From the NCBI GenBank assembly GCA_009914755.4, contig CP068257.2, positions 28,928,001-28,992,000 on the forward strand: a stretch of 64,000 nt of DNA, given 5' to 3'. This document shows, one piece after another, positions 29,174-40,207 of this stretch. Below the pieces are notes generated by a model that saw only the letters and a list, made by a program, of their open reading frames with translations, ran no database searches and had not been told where the DNA came from. A program made the translations under genes and the position numbers. The first letter of the stretch is position 1. Every line of letters begins with the position of its first letter. The stretch is from the human T2T-CHM13v2.0 reference genome, Homo sapiens.

Positions 29174-29311
29174 TCAGAATTTCTTTCTAGGAGCCAATAG
29201 GAATCTTCCATAGGAGCACGGAAAGTTGCAGGCATATCCAGAGTTACCATATTCAGAGCCATAGCTGCAACCATAGTCCAGGCTACCATAATAGTTGTGG
29301 TAGTAGCACAT
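29174..29311 (-). CDS. KRTAP22-2: High-glycine-tyrosine keratin-associated protein 22-2 (45 aa, single exon)
   Basis: The minus-strand ORF was read manually: MCYYHNYYGSLDYGCSYGSEYGNSGYACNFPCSYGRFLLAPRKKF*. It is not in the ORF track because it is under 60 aa. The leader 'cttctgacaccATG' matches the KRTAP20/22 family leaders. The gene name is from my memory of the human protein and of the cluster order, which places KRTAP22-2 immediately before KRTAP6-3. Confidence 0.75.
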   Translation of the reverse strand: MCYYHNYYGSLDYGCSYGSEYGNSGYACNFPCSYGRFLLAPRKKF

Positions 29312-30127
29312 GGTGTCAGAAGATGGAGTTCAATTGAGGCAGATAGTAGTTTCTGAAATTTGACTCTCCTGATTTGTACAAATTATTTTATCCAACCTGA
29401 GTTATATGTGAAGGAAACCACAATCTACATTGGACTCATTCTCACAACTAATTTGCATTAAGATTAAAAAAACCCTCAAGAATCTCTTAGCCATATGTCC
29501 AGGAAAATATTAATATTGCTATGTGTCAGGATGCCAACAAGTAAAATCATGAGCCTTAAGGAGATATTCTCTTAATTTTGTGGCTTTTGCTTACTTAAAA
29601 TCCCAATTTAAACTTGATGATTAGCTTCTCTGTGATCACATTAAGCTTATATTTCCTGCCTCTTGAAACATTTCTTTTTTCTTTTTCAATATCCTCCTCT
29701 ACCTCCATAAATGCAGTCCTTAAACCACAGAGTGGCCAGGAATGGTTAGGGAAGGTTGGCTATGCAGTGAGGAAGCCGATGAAAATGTCTTTATTTACTT
29801 GCAAATATGCCTGTATGTTTTGACTAATTTATTTCTTAATCAATGGGACTAAAAATTTTCTTCCAAGTTCATATGTAGCTTATGTTCTTGGAGTAGTAAA
29901 GTTTTTTCTCTTCCATCATCCTCACTTTGGTTATATTATTAGTTGTGGTGTTCTCTTTGCATCTGAGAAAGCAATTAGAAACAATTACCCACCGTATCTC
30001 AAAATTCATGTTTTCCTCTCCTGACACATAATATTCACATATTTTACCTTCTTTTTATATTTAATGAATTTGCTTATTTTAAAATATATTAATTCCAAAT
30101 TTCCAAAAGTATTGTAAAAATACTTTT

Positions 30128-30463
30128 CATCTTCTAGCAGAATTCCTGTTACTATTTTTTAAAGTGGTGACTTGGATAGAATAACATCAGCAAACCACAT
30201 TTCTGGCCCAAATGCATTCTGGTGATAGCCTTAATTATGAGAGCTGACTTTCTATGAAGCTCCCTGTGATAATTTGTCACGTTTATTCCATCCACTTATT
30301 AAATATTATTAATGAATTATTAGTCATTTATTATGATAAAGCAATTAGAATAAAATATAAACAAATAATAGTACATATTAATTCATTTGCTACTCTTAAA
30401 TGTAGCAGAACTACCAATGATCAACCTAGGGATCATACTTTGTAGATCAATGTGAGACTGGCA
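30128..30463 (-). repeat. Right arm of the 336-bp inverted repeat flanking KRTAP22-2
   Basis: Reverse-complement match to 27999-28334. The spacer between the arms is 1793 bp and contains the KRTAP22-2 CDS and its putative promoter. Confidence 0.9.
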
Positions 30464-31318
30464 AAGTATCATATCAATAAGAGGCAAGTAGAACATTTAG
30501 TCAGAATTTCGGAACTGCACACAGTAGTTCATAAACTTTAGTGGATATATACCACCACCTTAACAATCGGAAAAGGCATGGATTCTCAAACCAGAAAAAA
30601 ATCACCATGATAAATTCCTCCACTGGTTTGCATATGATCCAAAAGGATCCCAGAGTACATGAATTTATCCCCAGTTACCCCAAGCATAGAACAAAGATTG
30701 TGATTATTCTACACAGAATTTGAGTATAGAAAGTTGCATCATGTCATTCATTTGGTTATTTTTTCACTAATTCATCAAATCTTTATTAAGAATCTGCTGT
30801 ATCAGGCACCGTTATAAGAAATGCAGATTGAGCAGATGAACAAAATAGACAAAGTCTCTACTTTCTGCAGGTTACAATGAGACAGAAGGGATAGAGAGAC
30901 TGATTTTAAAAATGAATGAAATAGATTCTAACAGTGAAGAATCCTGTGAGAATAATAAAACTCAGTGAGTTACATTAAGTTCAGTTACTGGAGGTAGACT
31001 AATTAATATAAGGTGGCCATTAAAAGTCTCTCTGGGAAGTGAACATTTCAATTGAAATAGAAAATGAGTCAAATATTCCTGGTATTATTTTAAGAAAGAG
31101 AAATCAGTAAGTGCAGAGGCCAGGGCCTTATTGTGAGAAGAAACCTGCTGCATTTTAAAAGACAAAAAGCCAGCAGAGTTTGAGCATTATAGATAAATGG
31201 AGGAGAGTAGCAGGATATGAAATCAGAGAGATACGTAAGGGCCAGAACTTCTCAGCACAATGAAAGGCCTTTAGAGATATTTTTGCAGGGGCACGCTATG
31301 TTCTGATTCACTGAGGCA

Positions 31319-31326
31319 TATAAAAG
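31319..31326 (+). promoter_or_regulatory. KRTAP6-3: TATA box (TATAAAAG) of KRTAP6-3
   Basis: 'gaggcatataaaaggccctctgcgg' lies 85 bp upstream of the ATG. The same 90-bp promoter and 5'UTR module is present at KRTAP6-2 and KRTAP6-1. Confidence 0.7.
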
Positions 31327-31403
31327 GCCCTCTGCGGAGAAGTGTCCATACTGAAGTCACCTACACTCCTTCCTACCCAAGGATGACCTCAACAACCAAC
31401 ACC

Positions 31404-37814: not shown

Positions 37815-37890
37815 CGTGATGGTTGTGGAGGTTGTCCTTGGGTAGGAAGGAGTGTAGGTGACTTCAGTATGGATACTTCCTGTAGAAGTC

Positions 37891-37898
37891 CTTTTATA
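37891..37898 (-). promoter_or_regulatory. KRTAP6-2: TATA box (TATAAAAG on minus strand) of KRTAP6-2
   Basis: The + strand reads 'cttttatatgcctcagg', which is the reverse complement of 'cctgaggcatataaaag'. It sits 77-84 bp upstream of the ATG and is identical to the KRTAP6-3 and KRTAP6-1 promoter module. Confidence 0.7.
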
Positions 37899-39423
37899 TG
37901 CCTCAGGATGGGAATGATCCAGCAGAGGTAGCATACCACTGGCTAATTTTTTGACTAATATAATTAGTTTGTTTTTTCTCAATTGTAAGATAATGCTGCA
38001 GAGGTATTAAGGAGGCTTGTTTTGTTTGGCCTTGCAATTTGGGCTCCCCTTATCTGATTGAGGGCTCTGATGAAAGGAGACCTCACACACTCACACTCAT
38101 ATAATCCTGCCTCAAACTAGACTTTCTATAGCCATCCTTTACATCAAGAAAGACTTTTGTTAGTTACACTCTTATTTGCTCTAGGCCCCAATTAATTGTA
38201 CTCTTTTGCACAACATTCAGCAAACAATAACTTTGCCCTTTTAGTATTTCTTCTCTCTTTATCCAAATAATACTTTTTTCAGGGATTTAGTGTCTTTTCT
38301 ATACTAAAGCCATGATGTTGATAATAATTCAACTAATTAAAAATTCTAGAAAACCAGATCTGAGAAAAATTTGTTGTATTTTTCTACTTATACCAGTGAG
38401 TCTAATTTTCCTTTATGTTCAACCTCTACGGAAGAACAAGAAAATGTAAGTTATTTTCTTGATTTATAAAAGAATTAATAAGTGACCAAGTCAATGAAAT
38501 GGAACAATAGTTTTATATTCTCTTTTAACTTCTTATCTTAAAATAATCTCAGGCATAGAGATAGTTGTCAAAATAGTATAGAAAATTTCCATATATCCAT
38601 CATTCAACATCCCTAATATTAATATCTTTCATAACCATAATCCACTTATCACACCAAAGAAATTAACTGTGTACAGTATTCTTAACTAAACTGCAGACTT
38701 TATTTTACCATTTTTCTGTTATTATTAACTTATTTTATTTTAAGTTCTAGGACCATGGTTCATTGTAGCACTATTCACATATTTATTTTAATGTTCTTTT
38801 TTTCTGTTCTTGGATCCAATTCACATTGCATTTGGTTTTTATACTTCTTAGTCACCTCCAATTGCTCATGGTTCATTCGTCTTTTCTTGGCTTTTATGAC
38901 CTTACAATTTTAGAGAGCCAGATATTTTGTGGAATATTCCCCAATTGAATCTGTCTAAGGTTTCCTCATATGTAGATTGAGGTTATACATTTGGGAAGAG
39001 ATGTAACTCTTGTCTTGTGCCATCTCAGGGAGTCATGATGCCAATAAATCTTTGAGTAATTCTGGAATTGTTTTAAAATTCAGATTTTTAATAGAAGTCC
39101 TTTTCTTACTATATACCCAGAATCAACGAAGTCAAAAATCAAAGTCTTTGCCACGGTTTAGAATCATATATAAAATGATAGCTACATGTGAAGTATAAAC
39201 CAAAGAGAATGATATTGCTCCACAAAAAGTGATGAAACACCTTATCACTCAACATTTTACAAGTGAATGCTGCCACCATGACTTCTCTTACACGCTTATC
39301 ATCCTTCCTTATCACTTTGGAGCTACACTCTTATTCCCAAGTCTGCATATATGTATTTAGGCTGAAGGATATTATTGGGTGAAAGTAGGATTTTTAAAAA
39401 ATGGAAGCCATCACGTCCATAAC

Positions 39424-39695
39424 CCCAGGCTTTGGGAGGCCGAGGCGGGCGGATCTTGAGGTCAGGAGATCAAGACCATCCTGGCCAACATGGTGAAACC
39501 CCATCTCTACTAAAAATACAAAAATTAGCTGGGCGTGGTGGCACGCACCAGCTATTCATAAGGCTGAGGCAGAGAATCCAGGAGAATCACTTGAAACCAG
39601 GAGGTGGAGGTTGCAGTGAGATTGTGCCACTGCACTCCAGCCAGGCAACAGAGCTAGTCTCTGTCTCACAACAACAACAACAACAACAACAAAAA
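39424..39695 (+). mobile_element. Alu, sense, slightly 5'-truncated, with (CAA)n tail
   Basis: ccaggctttgggaggccgaggcgggcggatcttgaggtcaggagatcaagaccatcctggccaacatggtgaaacccc ... cactccagccaggcaacagagctagtctctgtctcacaacaacaacaacaacaac. Confidence 0.9.
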
Positions 39696-40060
39696 GTGGA
39701 AGCCATGTGGGTTACTCTTGGTTGCTGGTAATGTAGTTTAAATTTGACATCTGAAATAAATGAGTCATCAAAATAGGAGATGGATCTCTTATTAAAGGTA
39801 CATTATTTCATTATATTCAACATTCCTGAGAAACAGCAAAGTTGTCTTGGATGTATTGGTTACAAGGAATATTTTAGATGGTTTCAATGCTAATTAGTGT
39901 GGAATGTGAATCTAACAGTGCCTGTGATTTGTCCCACATACCATTCATGTGGCATTTAAGGCCCTTATTATAAGCTTAAAACTTTAAACTTAAAACTCTA
40001 TAAACTTAAAACTCTAGAATCTGATCCTGCTATACAACTGAGCCTACCTTTCTTGAAACC

Positions 40061-40207
40061 ATGAGCTTTGATAACAACTACCATGGTGGCCAGGGCTATG
40101 CCAAAGGAGGCCTGGGCTGCAGCTATGGCTGTGGTCATAGCGGCTATGGCTATGCCTGCTACTGCCCATGGTGTTATGAAAGATCTTGGTTTTCTGGCTG
40201 CTTCTGA
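40061..40207 (+). CDS. KRTAP22-1: High-glycine-tyrosine keratin-associated protein 22-1 (48 aa, single exon)
   Basis: The manual translation from 'atgagctttgataacaactaccatggtggc...' is MSFDNNYHGGQGYAKGGLGCSYGCGHSGYGYACYCPWCYERSWFSGCF*. This matches my recollection of human KRTAP22-1. It is absent from the track because it is under 60 aa. Track ORF 40068..40304 is the +1 frame of the same DNA. Possible TATA-like elements are 'ttattataag' at 39965-39974 and 'tataaac' at 39999-40005. Confidence 0.85.
   Translation: MSFDNNYHGGQGYAKGGLGCSYGCGHSGYGYACYCPWCYERSWFSGCF

What the first reader, a model, noticed from the sequence alone, without database searches (positions are those of the whole stretch)
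29174..40207. KRTAP22/KRTAP6 head-to-head pairs occur twice in opposite gene order, consistent with an inverted duplication of a bidirectional unit
Pair 1 is KRTAP22-2 (-) at 29.2 kb and KRTAP6-3 (+) at 31.4 kb. Pair 2 is KRTAP6-2 (-) at 37.7 kb and KRTAP22-1 (+) at 40.1 kb. Both are divergent pairs with about 2.1-2.3 kb between start codons, but the order of the KRTAP6 and KRTAP22 members is swapped. Inverting a [22(-) ... 6(+)] unit yields exactly [6(-) ... 22(+)]. A third divergent pair is KRTAP6-1 (-) and KRTAP20-1 (+) at 52.7 and 55.4 kb. Here a KRTAP20 member, whose leader is related to KRTAP22, takes the partner position. The KRTAP6 promoter, leader and 3'UTR are strongly conserved across all three copies. 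Examples are 'tgaggcatataaaagg', 'ctgaagtcacctacact.cct.ctacccaagga' and 'gggagactc...cctctatcctgtga'. The deeper intergenic sequence has diverged.
Basis: partly seen in the sequence, partly recalled or inferred. Interest (0 to 1): 0.5.

Follow-up and report, generated by a model that had tools for sequence, protein, structure and literature searches.

The report
Mirrored KRTAP6/KRTAP22 hair-gene pairs
The two look-alike KRTAP22/KRTAP6 gene pairs in this human hair-protein cluster are real but are not mirror copies of each other: the true mirror copy of pair 2 survives only in monkeys and was deleted in apes, which is ordinary gene-family turnover.

Summary
Six high-glycine-tyrosine KRTAP ORFs sit at the stated coordinates with strictly alternating strands, forming three divergent pairs with 2.1-2.6 kb between start codons. 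The quoted KRTAP6 motifs are present.

Pair 1 (22-2/6-3) and pair 2 (6-2/22-1) share only gene-proximal sequence. The central 1.7 kb matches no better than shuffled sequence. KRTAP6-3 loses all homology 95 bp upstream of its ATG.

The members of pair 1 also differ in age. KRTAP22-2 branches outside the clade of KRTAP22-1 and its camel homologue. KRTAP6-3 is the sister of KRTAP6-1, not of KRTAP6-2.

Monkey, camel and rodent loci do show an ancient bidirectional KRTAP22/KRTAP6 unit of about 4 kb. Pair 2 is a full-length copy of it. Its mirror copy (K22x/K6x) exists in New World monkeys, is decaying in Old World monkeys and is deleted in apes (junction at 34786-34791).

The mirror covers a three-gene block: 6-3, 22x, 6x against 6-2, 22-1, 6-1. 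In human, only 6-3 and its 3' flank (31309-34792) remain of the left arm. Pair 1 is most likely a secondary juxtaposition at the edge of that arm.

This is ordinary birth-and-death evolution and of low interest.

The parts
27991..28332 (.). Left arm of a 346-bp inverted repeat that flanks KRTAP22-2. It lies in the gene's 3' flank.
   Evidence: 93.6% identical to 30470-30127. Both arms are present in gorilla, gibbon and two Old World monkeys; Aotus has only this copy.
28549..29625 (-). KRTAP22-2 locus: 3' flank, gene and about 310 bp of upstream sequence, paralogous to the KRTAP22-1 locus.
   Evidence: 28832-29625 matches 40557-39724 (59.9% over 866 bp, E 2e-36) and 28549-28722 matches 40786-40615. 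It also matches camel L007 14620-15809 at 62.7%. Smith-Waterman score 102 against a shuffle maximum of 21.
29174..29311 (-). KRTAP22-2 coding sequence (45 aa).
   Evidence: ORF. Exact match to KR222_HUMAN / NP_001157906.1.
29626..31308 (.). Centre of pair 1's intergenic region. It has no homologue in any other KRTAP22/KRTAP6 unit.
   Evidence: No hit to U2, U3, Sapajus Ux or camel Uc on either strand. Smith-Waterman 17-19 against shuffles of 15.7-16.9 (sd 1.7-1.8, max 21).
30127..30470 (.). Right arm of the 346-bp inverted repeat, inserted within pair 1's intergenic region.
   Evidence: In Aotus it lies within the missing stretch, so the only match is a cross-match to the left arm.
30754..31233 (+). 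Ancient LINE-2-like fragment that abuts the KRTAP6-3 promoter.
   Evidence: 59-60% identical to sequences beside element B in Sapajus (L010 17658-18175), Chlorocebus (L020 4901-5418) and marmot (L008 6381-6849). Those monkey copies match my recollected L2 3' consensus. The family assignment rests on memory.
31309..31403 (+). KRTAP6-3 core promoter (TATA at 31319-31326) and 5' leader. This is the left boundary of all KRTAP6 homology.
   Evidence: Every comparison with human paralogues, Sapajus, camel, stoat, marmot and Acomys stops at 31309-31315. The CCAAT-box region kept by KRTAP6-1, 6-2 and K6x is missing.
31404..31715 (+). KRTAP6-3 coding sequence (103 aa).
   Evidence: Related to gibbon KRTAP6-3, P0007.
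31716..32079 (+). KRTAP6-3 3'UTR and proximal 3' flank ('alpha' type).
   Evidence: 31309-32079 matches 52940-52264 (KRTAP6-1) at 76% over 774 bp. Sister to KRTAP6-1 in the 3'-flank tree, K2P 0.28.
32204..33774 (-). LINE-1-like insertion that splits the KRTAP6-3 3' flank.
   Evidence: Matches other L1-like copies at 49693-50237 and 46354-46916, out of order with the flanking homology. The translations look like L1 ORF2, which I recognised from memory. Pfam gave no hit.
33825..34792 (+). 'A': distal 3' flank of KRTAP6-3, the last surviving part of the left arm.
   Evidence: 33825-34331 matches 51854-51352 (64.3%) and 34486-34792 matches 49579-49282 (63.5%), inverted and colinear. It also matches the camel K6b 3' flank, L007 10703-11562, and Aotus L015 8737-7838.
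34786..34791 (.). Ape-specific deletion junction. About 18.8 kb present in Sapajus, carrying K22x and K6x, is missing here.
   Evidence: Sapajus L010 1-249 matches 34550-34791 and L010 19109-20906 matches 34786-36606. There is TTT microhomology at the junction. Gibbon is colinear across the junction.
35031..36099 (.). 'B': conserved single-copy non-coding block at the centre of the mirror structure, on the 3' side of KRTAP6-2.
   Evidence: Matches marmot L008 2519-1451 (67% over 1128 bp), stoat L006 8401-7848 and camel L007 8445-7928. No paralogous copy of this stretch was found in the window.
37232..37625 (-). KRTAP6-2 3' flank ('beta' type).
   Evidence: Matches camel K6a and stoat K6a 3' flanks and the Sapajus K6x 3' flank.
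37626..37814 (-). KRTAP6-2 coding sequence (62 aa).
   Evidence: Closely related to bonobo KRTAP6-2, P0006.
37815..40060 (.). Pair 2 intergenic region: a full-length but internally deleted copy of the ancestral KRTAP22/KRTAP6 unit, with an Alu at 39411-39695.
   Evidence: Colinear with Sapajus Ux at unit positions 2-642, 645-866, 968-1585 and 1901-2246 (63-70%, E down to 1e-94). Colinear with camel Uc at 61-70%. It lacks 2.0-2.6 kb that Ux and Uc share. The Alu matches other Alu copies in the window.
40061..40207 (+). KRTAP22-1 coding sequence (48 aa).
   Evidence: Exact match to the Pan/Pongo KRTAP22-1 protein. Pfam PF11759 at 38.8 bits.
40208..40930 (+). KRTAP22-1 3' flank, part of the right arm.
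   Evidence: 39868-40929 matches the Aotus K22x locus, L015 52-1076 (66.8%). Camel L007 14119-15406 matches 41287-40060.
47338..49579 (.). Ancestral, non-repeat segments of the KRTAP22-1 to KRTAP6-1 interval (right arm).
   Evidence: Colinear with Aotus L015 5734-7927 (60.7-62%) and camel L007 11243-11950. Also matches human 34486-34792.
50753..51854 (-). 'A-prime': distal 3' flank of KRTAP6-1, the mirror of A.
   Evidence: Camel L007 10703-11233 matches 51676-50787.
52264..52628 (-). KRTAP6-1 3'UTR and proximal flank ('alpha' type).
52629..52844 (-). KRTAP6-1 coding sequence (71 aa).
52845..53711 (-). KRTAP6-1 promoter and about 870 bp of ancestral upstream sequence.
   Evidence: 52268-53711 matches camel K6b, L007 10703-9210 (71%). 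52603-53526 matches stoat K6b (74.7%). These three form clade I in the distal-upstream tree, K2P 0.26-0.36.
55395..55565 (+). KRTAP20-1 coding sequence (56 aa), the divergent partner of KRTAP6-1.
   Evidence: Exact match to human NP_853646.1. Pfam PF11759 at 36.4 bits.

Best explanation
The window is the KRTAP6/20/22 part of the human 21q22.1 hair keratin-associated-protein cluster.

Shown:
- An ancestral divergent unit, KRTAP22(-) then about 4 kb then KRTAP6(+), exists in a New World monkey, camel and a rodent.
- Human pair 2 (6-2/22-1) is a full-length copy of that unit.
- That unit lies inside a three-gene block: KRTAP6 'alpha', 3' flank A, KRTAP22, unit intergenic region, KRTAP6 'beta'. 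In anthropoid primates the block is present twice in mirror orientation around a single-copy centre (element B).
- The left arm is 6-3(+), A, K22x(-), K6x(+). The right arm is 6-2(-), 22-1(+), A', 6-1(-).
- Most of the left arm then decayed. K22x carries a stop codon in Sapajus. In Chlorocebus its coding region is deleted and K6x carries a stop codon. In apes about 18.8 kb carrying both genes is gone (junction at 34786-34791). Human keeps only KRTAP6-3 and its 3' flank (31309-34792).

Inferred:
- The block was copied in inverted orientation, or copied in tandem and then inverted. This happened around or somewhat after the primate-laurasiathere split.
- The left arm ends 95 bp upstream of the KRTAP6-3 ATG, next to KRTAP22-2, which is an older, pre-existing paralogue.
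- Human pair 1 is therefore a secondary juxtaposition at an arm boundary, not a copied bidirectional unit.
- The strong similarity of KRTAP6 promoters, leaders and 3'UTRs reflects constraint plus gene conversion confined to the gene and its immediate flanks.
For: (1) The unit is real and old. The Sapajus K22x/K6x intergenic region (4.8 kb) is colinear over its whole length with camel K22L/K6c (64-66%, E 1e-103 to 1e-151). The upstream region of Acomys K6 is colinear with both.

(2) Pair 2 is a mirror copy. The whole human intergenic region 37815-40060 aligns to Sapajus Ux (63-70%, E to 1e-94). Ux lies in the opposite orientation on the same contig as the KRTAP6-2 orthologue. The 3' flanks of K6x and KRTAP6-2 are inverted repeats within Sapajus.

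(3) The mirror covers three genes.
- Aotus K22x-to-A (L015 52-8722) is colinear with human 39868-51707 in five non-repeat blocks (60-67%).
- The camel K6b-to-K22L interval aligns to both arms.
- Within the human window, 31309-32079, 33825-34331 and 34486-34792 mirror 52940-52264, 51854-51352 and 49579-49282. The homology ends exactly at the deletion junction.

(4) The trees agree.
- KRTAP6-3 is sister to KRTAP6-1: 0.28, against 0.43-0.45 to camel.
- KRTAP22-1 is sister to K22x: 0.25-0.37, against 0.34-0.44 to camel.
- KRTAP6-2 groups with K6x.
- KRTAP22-2 lies outside this clade at 0.50-0.74.

(5) Decay of the left arm is documented.

(6) KRTAP6-3 homology stops at -95 in every comparison, and the CCAAT region is lost.

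(7) Gene-proximal sequence clusters by species: camel 97-98% and stoat 99%. Distal flanks cluster by orthology.
Against: Only 20-kb snapshots of other species were available, and none spans a whole cluster. The Chlorocebus map has a 3.1-kb gap between two loci.

The date of the duplication is not resolved. In distal upstream sequence, KRTAP6-2 to K6x (0.36-0.38) equals either gene's distance to camel or stoat (0.35-0.39). The two blocks could therefore predate the primate-laurasiathere split and differ only by an inversion.

The closeness of KRTAP6-3 and KRTAP6-1 could be inflated by gene conversion.

The break at -95 of KRTAP6-3 could be a later deletion rather than the arm boundary. An L2-like fragment lies upstream of KRTAP6-3 (30754-31233). 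Similar fragments, 59-60% identical, lie about 3 kb upstream of another KRTAP6 gene in marmot and Chlorocebus, in the same relative orientation.

KRTAP22-2 keeps about 410-460 bp of unit-like upstream sequence. It may once have had its own KRTAP6 partner, which would make pair 1 a degraded unit rather than a pure accident.

No repeat annotation tool was available. The Alu, L1 and L2 calls rest on within-data similarity and on my recognition.
Confidence: 0.7

Rival explanations
1. Pair 1 [22-2(-)...6-3(+)] and pair 2 [6-2(-)...22-1(+)] are direct inverted duplicates of one bidirectional unit, and the intergenic centre has simply diverged or been overwritten.
For: Both ends of pair 1 are homologous to the unit. 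On the KRTAP6 side there are 93-95 bp at 89-92%. On the KRTAP22 side there are 236-420 bp at 60-64%, in the right order and orientation. Start-codon spacing is similar in all three pairs.
Against: The centre (1.7 kb) scores like shuffled sequence. Sequence of the same age elsewhere in the arms is still alignable at 60-70%.

Pair 2's intergenic region is almost wholly ancestral, so insertions in pair 2 cannot hide the homology.

The KRTAP6-3 break is abrupt, just 5' of the TATA box.

KRTAP22-2 is older than the split between KRTAP22-1 and camel K22L. KRTAP6-3 is sister to KRTAP6-1 and not to KRTAP6-2. The true mirror of pair 2 is identified as K22x/K6x.

The spacing match is partly due to a catarrhine 344-bp insertion, an Alu and an old 2.0-2.6 kb deletion.
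Confidence: 0.07
2. The same two three-gene blocks already existed in tandem in the boreoeutherian ancestor. Under this reading camel K6a plus element B represents one block and K6b-K22L-K6c the next. The primate mirror arrangement then arose by inversion of one block, not by an inverted duplication.
For: In camel and stoat, a beta-type KRTAP6 and B lie directly upstream of an alpha-type KRTAP6 in the same orientation.

KRTAP6-2, its 3' flank and B are colinear with camel and stoat K6a, its 3' flank and B.

Sapajus Ux shares with camel Uc the central 2.0-2.6 kb that pair 2 lacks.

Distal upstream distances among KRTAP6-2, K6x and camel or stoat K6a form a trichotomy at 0.35-0.39.
Against: KRTAP6-3 to 6-1 (0.28) and KRTAP22-1 to K22x (0.25-0.37) are closer than either is to the camel copies (0.43-0.45 and 0.34-0.44).

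Camel K6a and K6c are only 0.20 apart, which suggests a separate duplication or conversion in the camel lineage.
Confidence: 0.25
3. There is no unit or block duplication. Single genes duplicated one at a time, and the alternating orientation and similar spacing are chance or are selected for shared regulation.
For: Pair 1 and pair 3 share only gene-proximal homology with other pairs. In stoat, marmot and Nannospalax several KRTAP6 genes have no KRTAP22/20 partner within 8-10 kb upstream.
Against: There is contiguous non-coding homology across whole intergenic regions and across the KRTAP6-to-KRTAP22 intervals between the two arms and camel. Single-gene duplication cannot produce this.
Confidence: 0.05

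Closest known systems
The human 21q22.1 domain of high-glycine-tyrosine and high-sulphur KRTAP genes, with published gene maps showing direction of transcription
   Same: Same genes, order and orientations. Reviews print maps with arrowheads and note that KRTAPs in a cluster are transcribed in alternating directions (PMC8657448, Figure 6 legend and text). 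Two ORFs are identical to the human KRTAP20-1 and KRTAP22-2 proteins.
   Different: The papers I could search do not describe a mirror-image KRTAP6/KRTAP22 block, the extra K22x/K6x pair of monkeys, or its deletion in apes. The original mapping paper (Rogers et al. 2002, known to me from memory) was not readable here.
Birth-and-death plus concerted evolution of KRTAP subfamilies (Wu et al. 2008, PMC2528016; Khan et al. 2014, PMC4180150)
   Same: The patterns match what those papers report: lineage-specific gain, loss and pseudogenisation of KRTAP6 and KRTAP22 copies, and species-specific clustering of gene-proximal sequence. KRTAP6 copy number varies among mammals in Khan et al.'s Table 1.
   Different: Here the unit of turnover is resolved to a multi-gene block with defined arms, a deletion junction and non-coding homology. 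Those papers used protein and coding trees.
Inverted segmental duplications (palindromes with a spacer) in mammalian gene clusters
   Same: Two arms of about 15 kb lie in opposite orientation around a unique spacer. They carry the same gene order and have roughly uniform divergence.
   Different: The arms are old (60-70% identity), so there is no sign of ongoing arm-to-arm homogenisation outside the genes. One arm has been largely deleted in apes.
Bidirectional promoters (divergent genes with start sites less than 1 kb apart)
   Same: Head-to-head gene orientation that is conserved across mammalian orders for the KRTAP22/KRTAP6 unit.
   Different: Start codons are 2.1-5 kb apart. The three KRTAP6 genes and KRTAP20-1 each have their own TATA box close to the gene. 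Intergenic conservation (K2P about 0.35-0.45 between primate and camel) is about what I would expect for unconstrained sequence at that distance, so it gives no evidence of a shared regulatory module.

Membership tests
High-glycine-tyrosine keratin-associated proteins (Pfam PF11759, KRTAP) | Match to the family profile at or above the curated cut-off of 21.1 bits | tested here: inconclusive
   KRTAP20-1 scores 36.4, KRTAP22-1 38.8 and KRTAP6-2 22.6, all passing. KRTAP6-3 (20.4) and KRTAP22-2 (20.5) fall just below. KRTAP6-1 gets no hit. These are short, low-complexity proteins.
High-glycine-tyrosine keratin-associated proteins | Identity or near-identity to named KRTAP proteins | tested here: met
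   KRTAP20-1, KRTAP22-2 and KRTAP20-4 are exact matches to the human proteins. KRTAP22-1 is an exact match to the Pan/Pongo protein. The KRTAP6 ORFs hit primate KRTAP6-2 and 6-3 and other mammalian KRTAP6-like proteins.
High-glycine-tyrosine keratin-associated proteins | Small single-exon gene, Gly+Tyr-rich product, located in a KRTAP cluster | tested here: met
   Uninterrupted ORFs of 45-103 aa with Gly+Tyr fractions of 0.33-0.68, all within one 27-kb stretch.
   Only 93 bp on the KRTAP6 side and about 250 bp on the KRTAP22 side align. The centres score like shuffles.
   KRTAP22-2 lies outside the clade of KRTAP22-1, K22x and camel K22L. KRTAP6-3 is sister to KRTAP6-1.
Inverted segmental duplication of the three-gene block K6alpha-K22-K6beta | Two arms in opposite orientation with the same gene order | tested here: met
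   Monkeys have 6-3(+), K22x(-), K6x(+) against 6-2(-), 22-1(+), 6-1(-).
Inverted segmental duplication of the three-gene block K6alpha-K22-K6beta | Colinear non-coding homology along the arms | tested here: met
   Ux against U2. Aotus K22x-to-A against human KRTAP22-1-to-6-1. Human 31309-34792 against 52940-49282.
Inverted segmental duplication of the three-gene block K6alpha-K22-K6beta | Similar divergence of all arm segments (a single event) | tested here: inconclusive
   K2P is 0.25-0.37 for the KRTAP22 upstream sequence, 0.28 for the KRTAP6-3/6-1 proximal 3' flank, and 0.36-0.47 for KRTAP6-2/K6x. These are broadly similar but drawn from different species pairs, and conversion is possible.
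Inverted segmental duplication of the three-gene block K6alpha-K22-K6beta | Created as an inverted copy rather than a tandem copy that was later inverted | not testable with these tools
   This needs complete clusters from outgroup mammals.
Bidirectional promoter pair | Divergent transcription start sites less than 1 kb apart that share one promoter region | tested here: not met
   ATGs are 2092-2550 bp apart. The three KRTAP6 genes and KRTAP20-1 each have a separate TATA box next to the gene.
Concerted evolution (gene conversion) among KRTAP6 paralogues | Gene-proximal sequence clusters by species while distal flanks cluster by orthology | tested here: met
   Over the last 100 nt before the ATG, camel copies are 97-98% identical and stoat K6a/K6c 99%. 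The first 80 nt of the 3'UTR also cluster by species. Distal upstream and 3' flanks form cross-species clades. In human the effect is weaker, at 84-89%.

The most novel reading that the evidence does not exclude
Two linked possibilities remain open.

First, the same K6alpha-K22-K6beta block may have been re-duplicated independently in different mammalian lineages: in tandem in camel and in mirror orientation in primates. That would make this spot a recurrent rearrangement hotspot.

Second, the ape stem lineage lost three high-glycine-tyrosine KAP genes in this interval: K22x, K6x and the clade-III KRTAP6 'K6y'. All three are still recognisable in at least one of the monkeys examined. This loss, together with the promoter-truncated KRTAP6-3, could contribute to differences in hair-fibre composition between apes and monkeys.
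Probability: 0.15. Interest if true: 0.4.

Novelty: new member of a known kind. Interest (0 to 1): 0.25.

Why it matters
The result corrects a plausible but wrong reading of a well-mapped human locus. It also gives a concrete history for the KRTAP6/22 sub-cluster:
- An ancient divergent KRTAP22/KRTAP6 unit.
- A mirror-image three-gene block.
- A dated ape-lineage deletion with a defined junction.

This helps assign orthology among KRTAP6 and KRTAP22 genes, which matters for wool and cashmere genetics, where family names are transferred from human by similarity. It also flags KRTAP6-3 as a gene that kept its TATA box but lost all upstream sequence.

It does not reveal a new kind of element or mechanism.

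Tried and rejected
(1) Inversion of KRTAP22-2 between the arms of the 346-bp inverted repeat. Rejected: Aotus, which has only one arm, is colinear with human through 27809-29989.

(2) An 'orphaned' KRTAP6-3 upstream region left beside element B, as the footprint of an inversion breakpoint. No such sequence was found in human, Sapajus or Chlorocebus.

(3) Pair 1 as the mirror of pair 3 (22-2 against 20-1). Rejected: KRTAP22-2 to KRTAP20-1 is 0.59-0.66, no closer than to other partners and far older than the arms.

(4) The L1 fragments downstream of KRTAP6-3 and KRTAP6-1 as part of the duplication. Rejected because they are out of order with the flanking homology.

(5) Confirming the LINE-2 identity of 30754-31233 with a consensus written from memory. 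That consensus hit other copies but not this one directly, so support is only transitive.

(6) Pfam scans of L1-like ORFs gave nothing.

(7) Protein homologue searches returned very few hits for these short, low-complexity proteins (4, 12 and 4 hits). No mouse, sheep, dog or afrotherian loci could be fetched.

(8) A second, inverted copy of element B near the palindrome centre was not found.

Full report
WHAT IS THERE

The window carries six intact high-glycine-tyrosine KRTAP ORFs at exactly the coordinates given:
- KRTAP22-2: 29174-29311 (-).
- KRTAP6-3: 31404-31715 (+).
- KRTAP6-2: 37626-37814 (-).
- KRTAP22-1: 40061-40207 (+).
- KRTAP6-1: 52629-52844 (-).
- KRTAP20-1: 55395-55565 (+).

The KRTAP20-1 and KRTAP22-2 ORFs are identical to the human proteins. 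A seventh ORF at 59599-59733 (+) is identical to human KRTAP20-4. The other names are supported by 90-97% matches to primate proteins with those names.

Strands alternate strictly, and the three head-to-head intervals are 2092, 2246 and 2550 bp. The quoted promoter, leader and 3'UTR motifs are present in all three KRTAP6 genes.

A self-comparison and a more sensitive pairwise search give the same picture. Pair 1 and pair 2 share 93 bp next to the KRTAP6 start codon (89%). They also share a weak 236-250 bp stretch (60%) about 80-340 bp upstream of the KRTAP22 start codons.

With still more sensitive settings, the KRTAP22-2 locus (28549-29625) aligns to the KRTAP22-1 locus (40786-39724) at 60%. 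That alignment covers only the gene, its 3' flank and about 310 bp of upstream sequence.

The central 1.7 kb of pair 1 (29626-31308) matches nothing in pair 2 or pair 3 on either strand. Smith-Waterman scores are 17-19, against 15.7-16.9 (sd 1.7-1.8, maximum 21) for shuffled sequence. The KRTAP22-2/22-1 positive control scores 102.

KRTAP6-3 loses homology to every other KRTAP6 gene at 31309. That point is about 8 nt 5' of the motif TGAGGCATATAAAAGG. KRTAP6-3 also lacks the TTAGCCAATGGCATGA (CCAAT) region that KRTAP6-1, KRTAP6-2 and monkey K6x keep.

EVIDENCE FROM OTHER SPECIES

Loci of about 20 kb were fetched around KRTAP6 or KRTAP22 genes. The species were great apes, gibbon, four Old World monkeys, Aotus, Sapajus, camel, stoat, marmot, Acomys and Nannospalax.

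Three results matter.

First, Sapajus has an extra divergent pair: K22x at L010 8042-8185 (-) and K6x at 12963 (+). It lies between the counterparts of human 34791 and 34786.
- Its 4.8-kb intergenic region is colinear along its whole length with that of a camel pair, K22L(-)/K6c(+), at 64-66%.
- It is also colinear with the upstream region of an Acomys KRTAP6 gene.
- The entire human pair 2 intergenic region aligns to both at 61-70%, with E values down to 1e-94.
- Relative to them, pair 2 lacks a central 2.0-2.6 kb and carries an Alu.

So a bidirectional KRTAP22/KRTAP6 unit exists and is at least boreoeutherian in age. Pair 2 is a complete copy of it. Its mirror copy in primates is K22x/K6x, not pair 1.

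Second, the mirror extends further.
- The Aotus stretch from K22x to 'A' is colinear with the human KRTAP22-1-to-KRTAP6-1 interval in five non-repeat blocks (60-67%). 'A' is the distal 3' flank of KRTAP6-3.
- The camel K6b-to-K22L interval aligns to both of these.
- Inside the human window, three segments mirror the KRTAP6-1 side in order: 31309-32079, 33825-34331 and 34486-34792 against 52940-52264, 51854-51352 and 49579-49282. They stop exactly at 34792.

The arms are therefore three-gene blocks. The left arm is 6-3(+), A, K22x(-), K6x(+). The right arm is 6-2(-), 22-1(+), A', 6-1(-). Between them lies the single-copy element B (35031-36099), which is conserved in marmot, stoat and camel.

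Third, the left arm has decayed.
- K22x is intact in Aotus but carries a stop codon in Sapajus.
- In Chlorocebus the K22x coding region is deleted and K6x carries a stop codon.
- Gibbon is colinear with human across the deletion junction at 34786-34791, which has TTT microhomology.
- In bonobo, chimpanzee and both orangutans, KRTAP6-3 and KRTAP6-2 lie 6.6-6.7 kb apart. That leaves no room for the 18.8-kb monkey segment.
- Aotus has separately lost the stretch equivalent to human 30016-33957, which includes KRTAP6-3. Pair 1 is therefore absent there.

PHYLOGENIES

Distal flanks sort KRTAP6 genes into cross-species clades:
- Clade I: human KRTAP6-1, camel K6b and stoat K6b.
- Clade II: KRTAP6-2, K6x, camel K6a and K6c, and stoat K6a.
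- Clade III: stoat K6c, the marmot gene and two rodent genes. A Chlorocebus pseudogene, 'K6y', sits next to B and belongs here.

In the 3' flank, KRTAP6-3 is sister to KRTAP6-1 (K2P 0.28). It is 0.43-0.45 from camel K6b and K6c, and 0.71 from KRTAP6-2.

KRTAP22-1, K22x and camel K22L form one clade (0.25-0.44). KRTAP22-2 (0.50-0.74) and KRTAP20-1 (0.58-0.73) lie outside it.

The two members of pair 1 thus have different ages and different closest relatives.

Gene-proximal sequence behaves differently from the flanks. The last 100 nt before the ATG are 97-98% identical among the three camel genes and 99% between stoat K6a and K6c. The first 80 nt of the 3'UTR also cluster by species. This is the signature of gene conversion plus constraint.

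MOST LIKELY HISTORY

The following steps are inferred rather than shown directly.

A block K6alpha-A-K22-K6beta was duplicated in inverted orientation, or duplicated in tandem and then inverted. This happened around or somewhat after the primate-laurasiathere split.

The left arm ends 95 bp upstream of KRTAP6-3, beside the older paralogue KRTAP22-2. The centre of pair 1 is then pre-existing sequence. It includes an L2-like fragment (30754-31233) and, since the catarrhine ancestor, a 344-bp inverted copy of a segment from the KRTAP22-2 3' flank.

The similar spacing of the pairs is therefore partly coincidental.

Three points remain open:
- Whether the two blocks predate the split from laurasiatheres. 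Camel and stoat show a beta-type KRTAP6 plus B directly upstream of an alpha-type KRTAP6, which would fit tandem blocks.
- Whether the break at -95 is the arm boundary or a later deletion.
- Whether KRTAP22-2 once had a KRTAP6 partner of its own. Its upstream sequence is unit-like for about 410-460 bp.

COMPARISON WITH WHAT IS KNOWN

Gene order and orientation in this cluster are published, and reviews note the alternating directions (PMC8657448). Birth-and-death and concerted evolution of KRTAPs are established (PMC2528016, PMC4180150).

None of the searchable papers mentions an inverted KRTAP6/KRTAP22 duplication or the monkey-only pair.

The divergent pairs are not bidirectional promoters in the strict sense. 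Start codons are more than 2 kb apart. The three KRTAP6 genes and KRTAP20-1 each have their own TATA box. Intergenic conservation is about what I would expect for unconstrained sequence at this distance.

VERDICT

The idea of a mirrored bidirectional unit is right, but the pairing is wrong.

The structure is a new, specific example of a familiar process in a tandem gene family. It is useful for orthology assignment but not surprising. Interest is about 0.25.

Noticed in passing
window 27991-28332 and 30127-30470: A 346-bp inverted repeat brackets KRTAP22-2 with 1.8 kb between the arms. Identity is 93.6% with gaps counted and 95.3% for substitutions only. Both arms occur in gorilla, gibbon and Old World monkeys; Aotus has one copy. 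Within-species arm identity (95-96%) is at least as high as human-to-monkey orthologue identity. That suggests an origin near the catarrhine ancestor, arm-to-arm conversion, or both. Such arms could allow the KRTAP22-2 segment to flip.
   Followed up: partly
window 31250-31330: KRTAP6-3 keeps its TATA box but lacks the conserved CCAAT-box region (TTAGCCAATGGCATGA) and all upstream sequence shared by other KRTAP6 genes. Its expression may differ from that of KRTAP6-1 and KRTAP6-2.
   Followed up: partly
window 59599-59733 (+): A 44-aa ORF identical to human 'putative KRTAP20-4'. Its upstream region and first codons are homologous to KRTAP22-2 (29229-29411 matches 59683-59494 at 65.8%).
   Followed up: partly
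window about 12685-12895 (-): A KRTAP19/20/22-like pseudogene fragment with no start codon. It matches 29179-29363 at 65.8%, and tblastn gives weak hits.
   Followed up: no
L020 1567-1824 (-) (Chlorocebus): An extra KRTAP6 pseudogene, 'K6y', lies between K6x and element B. It is orthologous to stoat K6c and the marmot KRTAP6 gene (K2P 0.32-0.45), so a third ancient KRTAP6 lineage is absent from the human window.
   Followed up: partly
L014 9852-9947 (+) (gorilla): A second, truncated copy of the KRTAP22-2 N-terminal coding sequence (31 aa, identical to the first 31 residues of KRTAP22-2) lies about 50 bp upstream of the full gene. It looks like a small gorilla-specific tandem duplication.
   Followed up: no
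L001-L005, L009, L018; window 31404-31715 and 37626-37814: KRTAP6 proteins vary in length among primates. KRTAP6-3 is 103 aa here, 93 aa in chimpanzee and bonobo, 71 aa in orangutans and 79 aa in gibbon. KRTAP6-2 is 62 aa here and in chimpanzee and bonobo (counted from the MCGSYY start) but 52 aa in orangutans. In Chlorocebus the KRTAP6-3 start codon is out of frame with the body of the gene.
   Followed up: no
window 40061-40207: The KRTAP22-1 protein encoded here is identical to the Pan/Pongo sequence. It is not identical to the human RefSeq/UniProt entry in the same 90% cluster. The exact KRTAP6-1, 6-2 and 6-3 sequences are not in the protein collection at all. These are probably human allelic variants.
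   Followed up: no
window 30754-31233; L010 17658-18175; L020 4901-5418; L008 6381-6849: An L2-like fragment lies directly upstream of KRTAP6-3. It is 59-60% identical to fragments that sit between element B and the clade-III KRTAP6 gene in marmot and Chlorocebus, in the same relative orientation. A matching fragment also lies beside element B in Sapajus, where no clade-III KRTAP6 gene was found. These may be independent L2 copies or an old shared segment.
   Followed up: partly
window 28795-28860: A (CT)n(CA)n microsatellite lies in the KRTAP22-2 3' flank. It produces many spurious cross-species hits.
   Followed up: no
L015 (Aotus) 8736-9356: Aotus lacks the equivalent of human 30016-33957, which includes the right repeat arm, the L2-like fragment and KRTAP6-3. 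An Alu sits at the junction. KRTAP22-2 therefore has no KRTAP6 partner within 10 kb in that species.
   Followed up: partly
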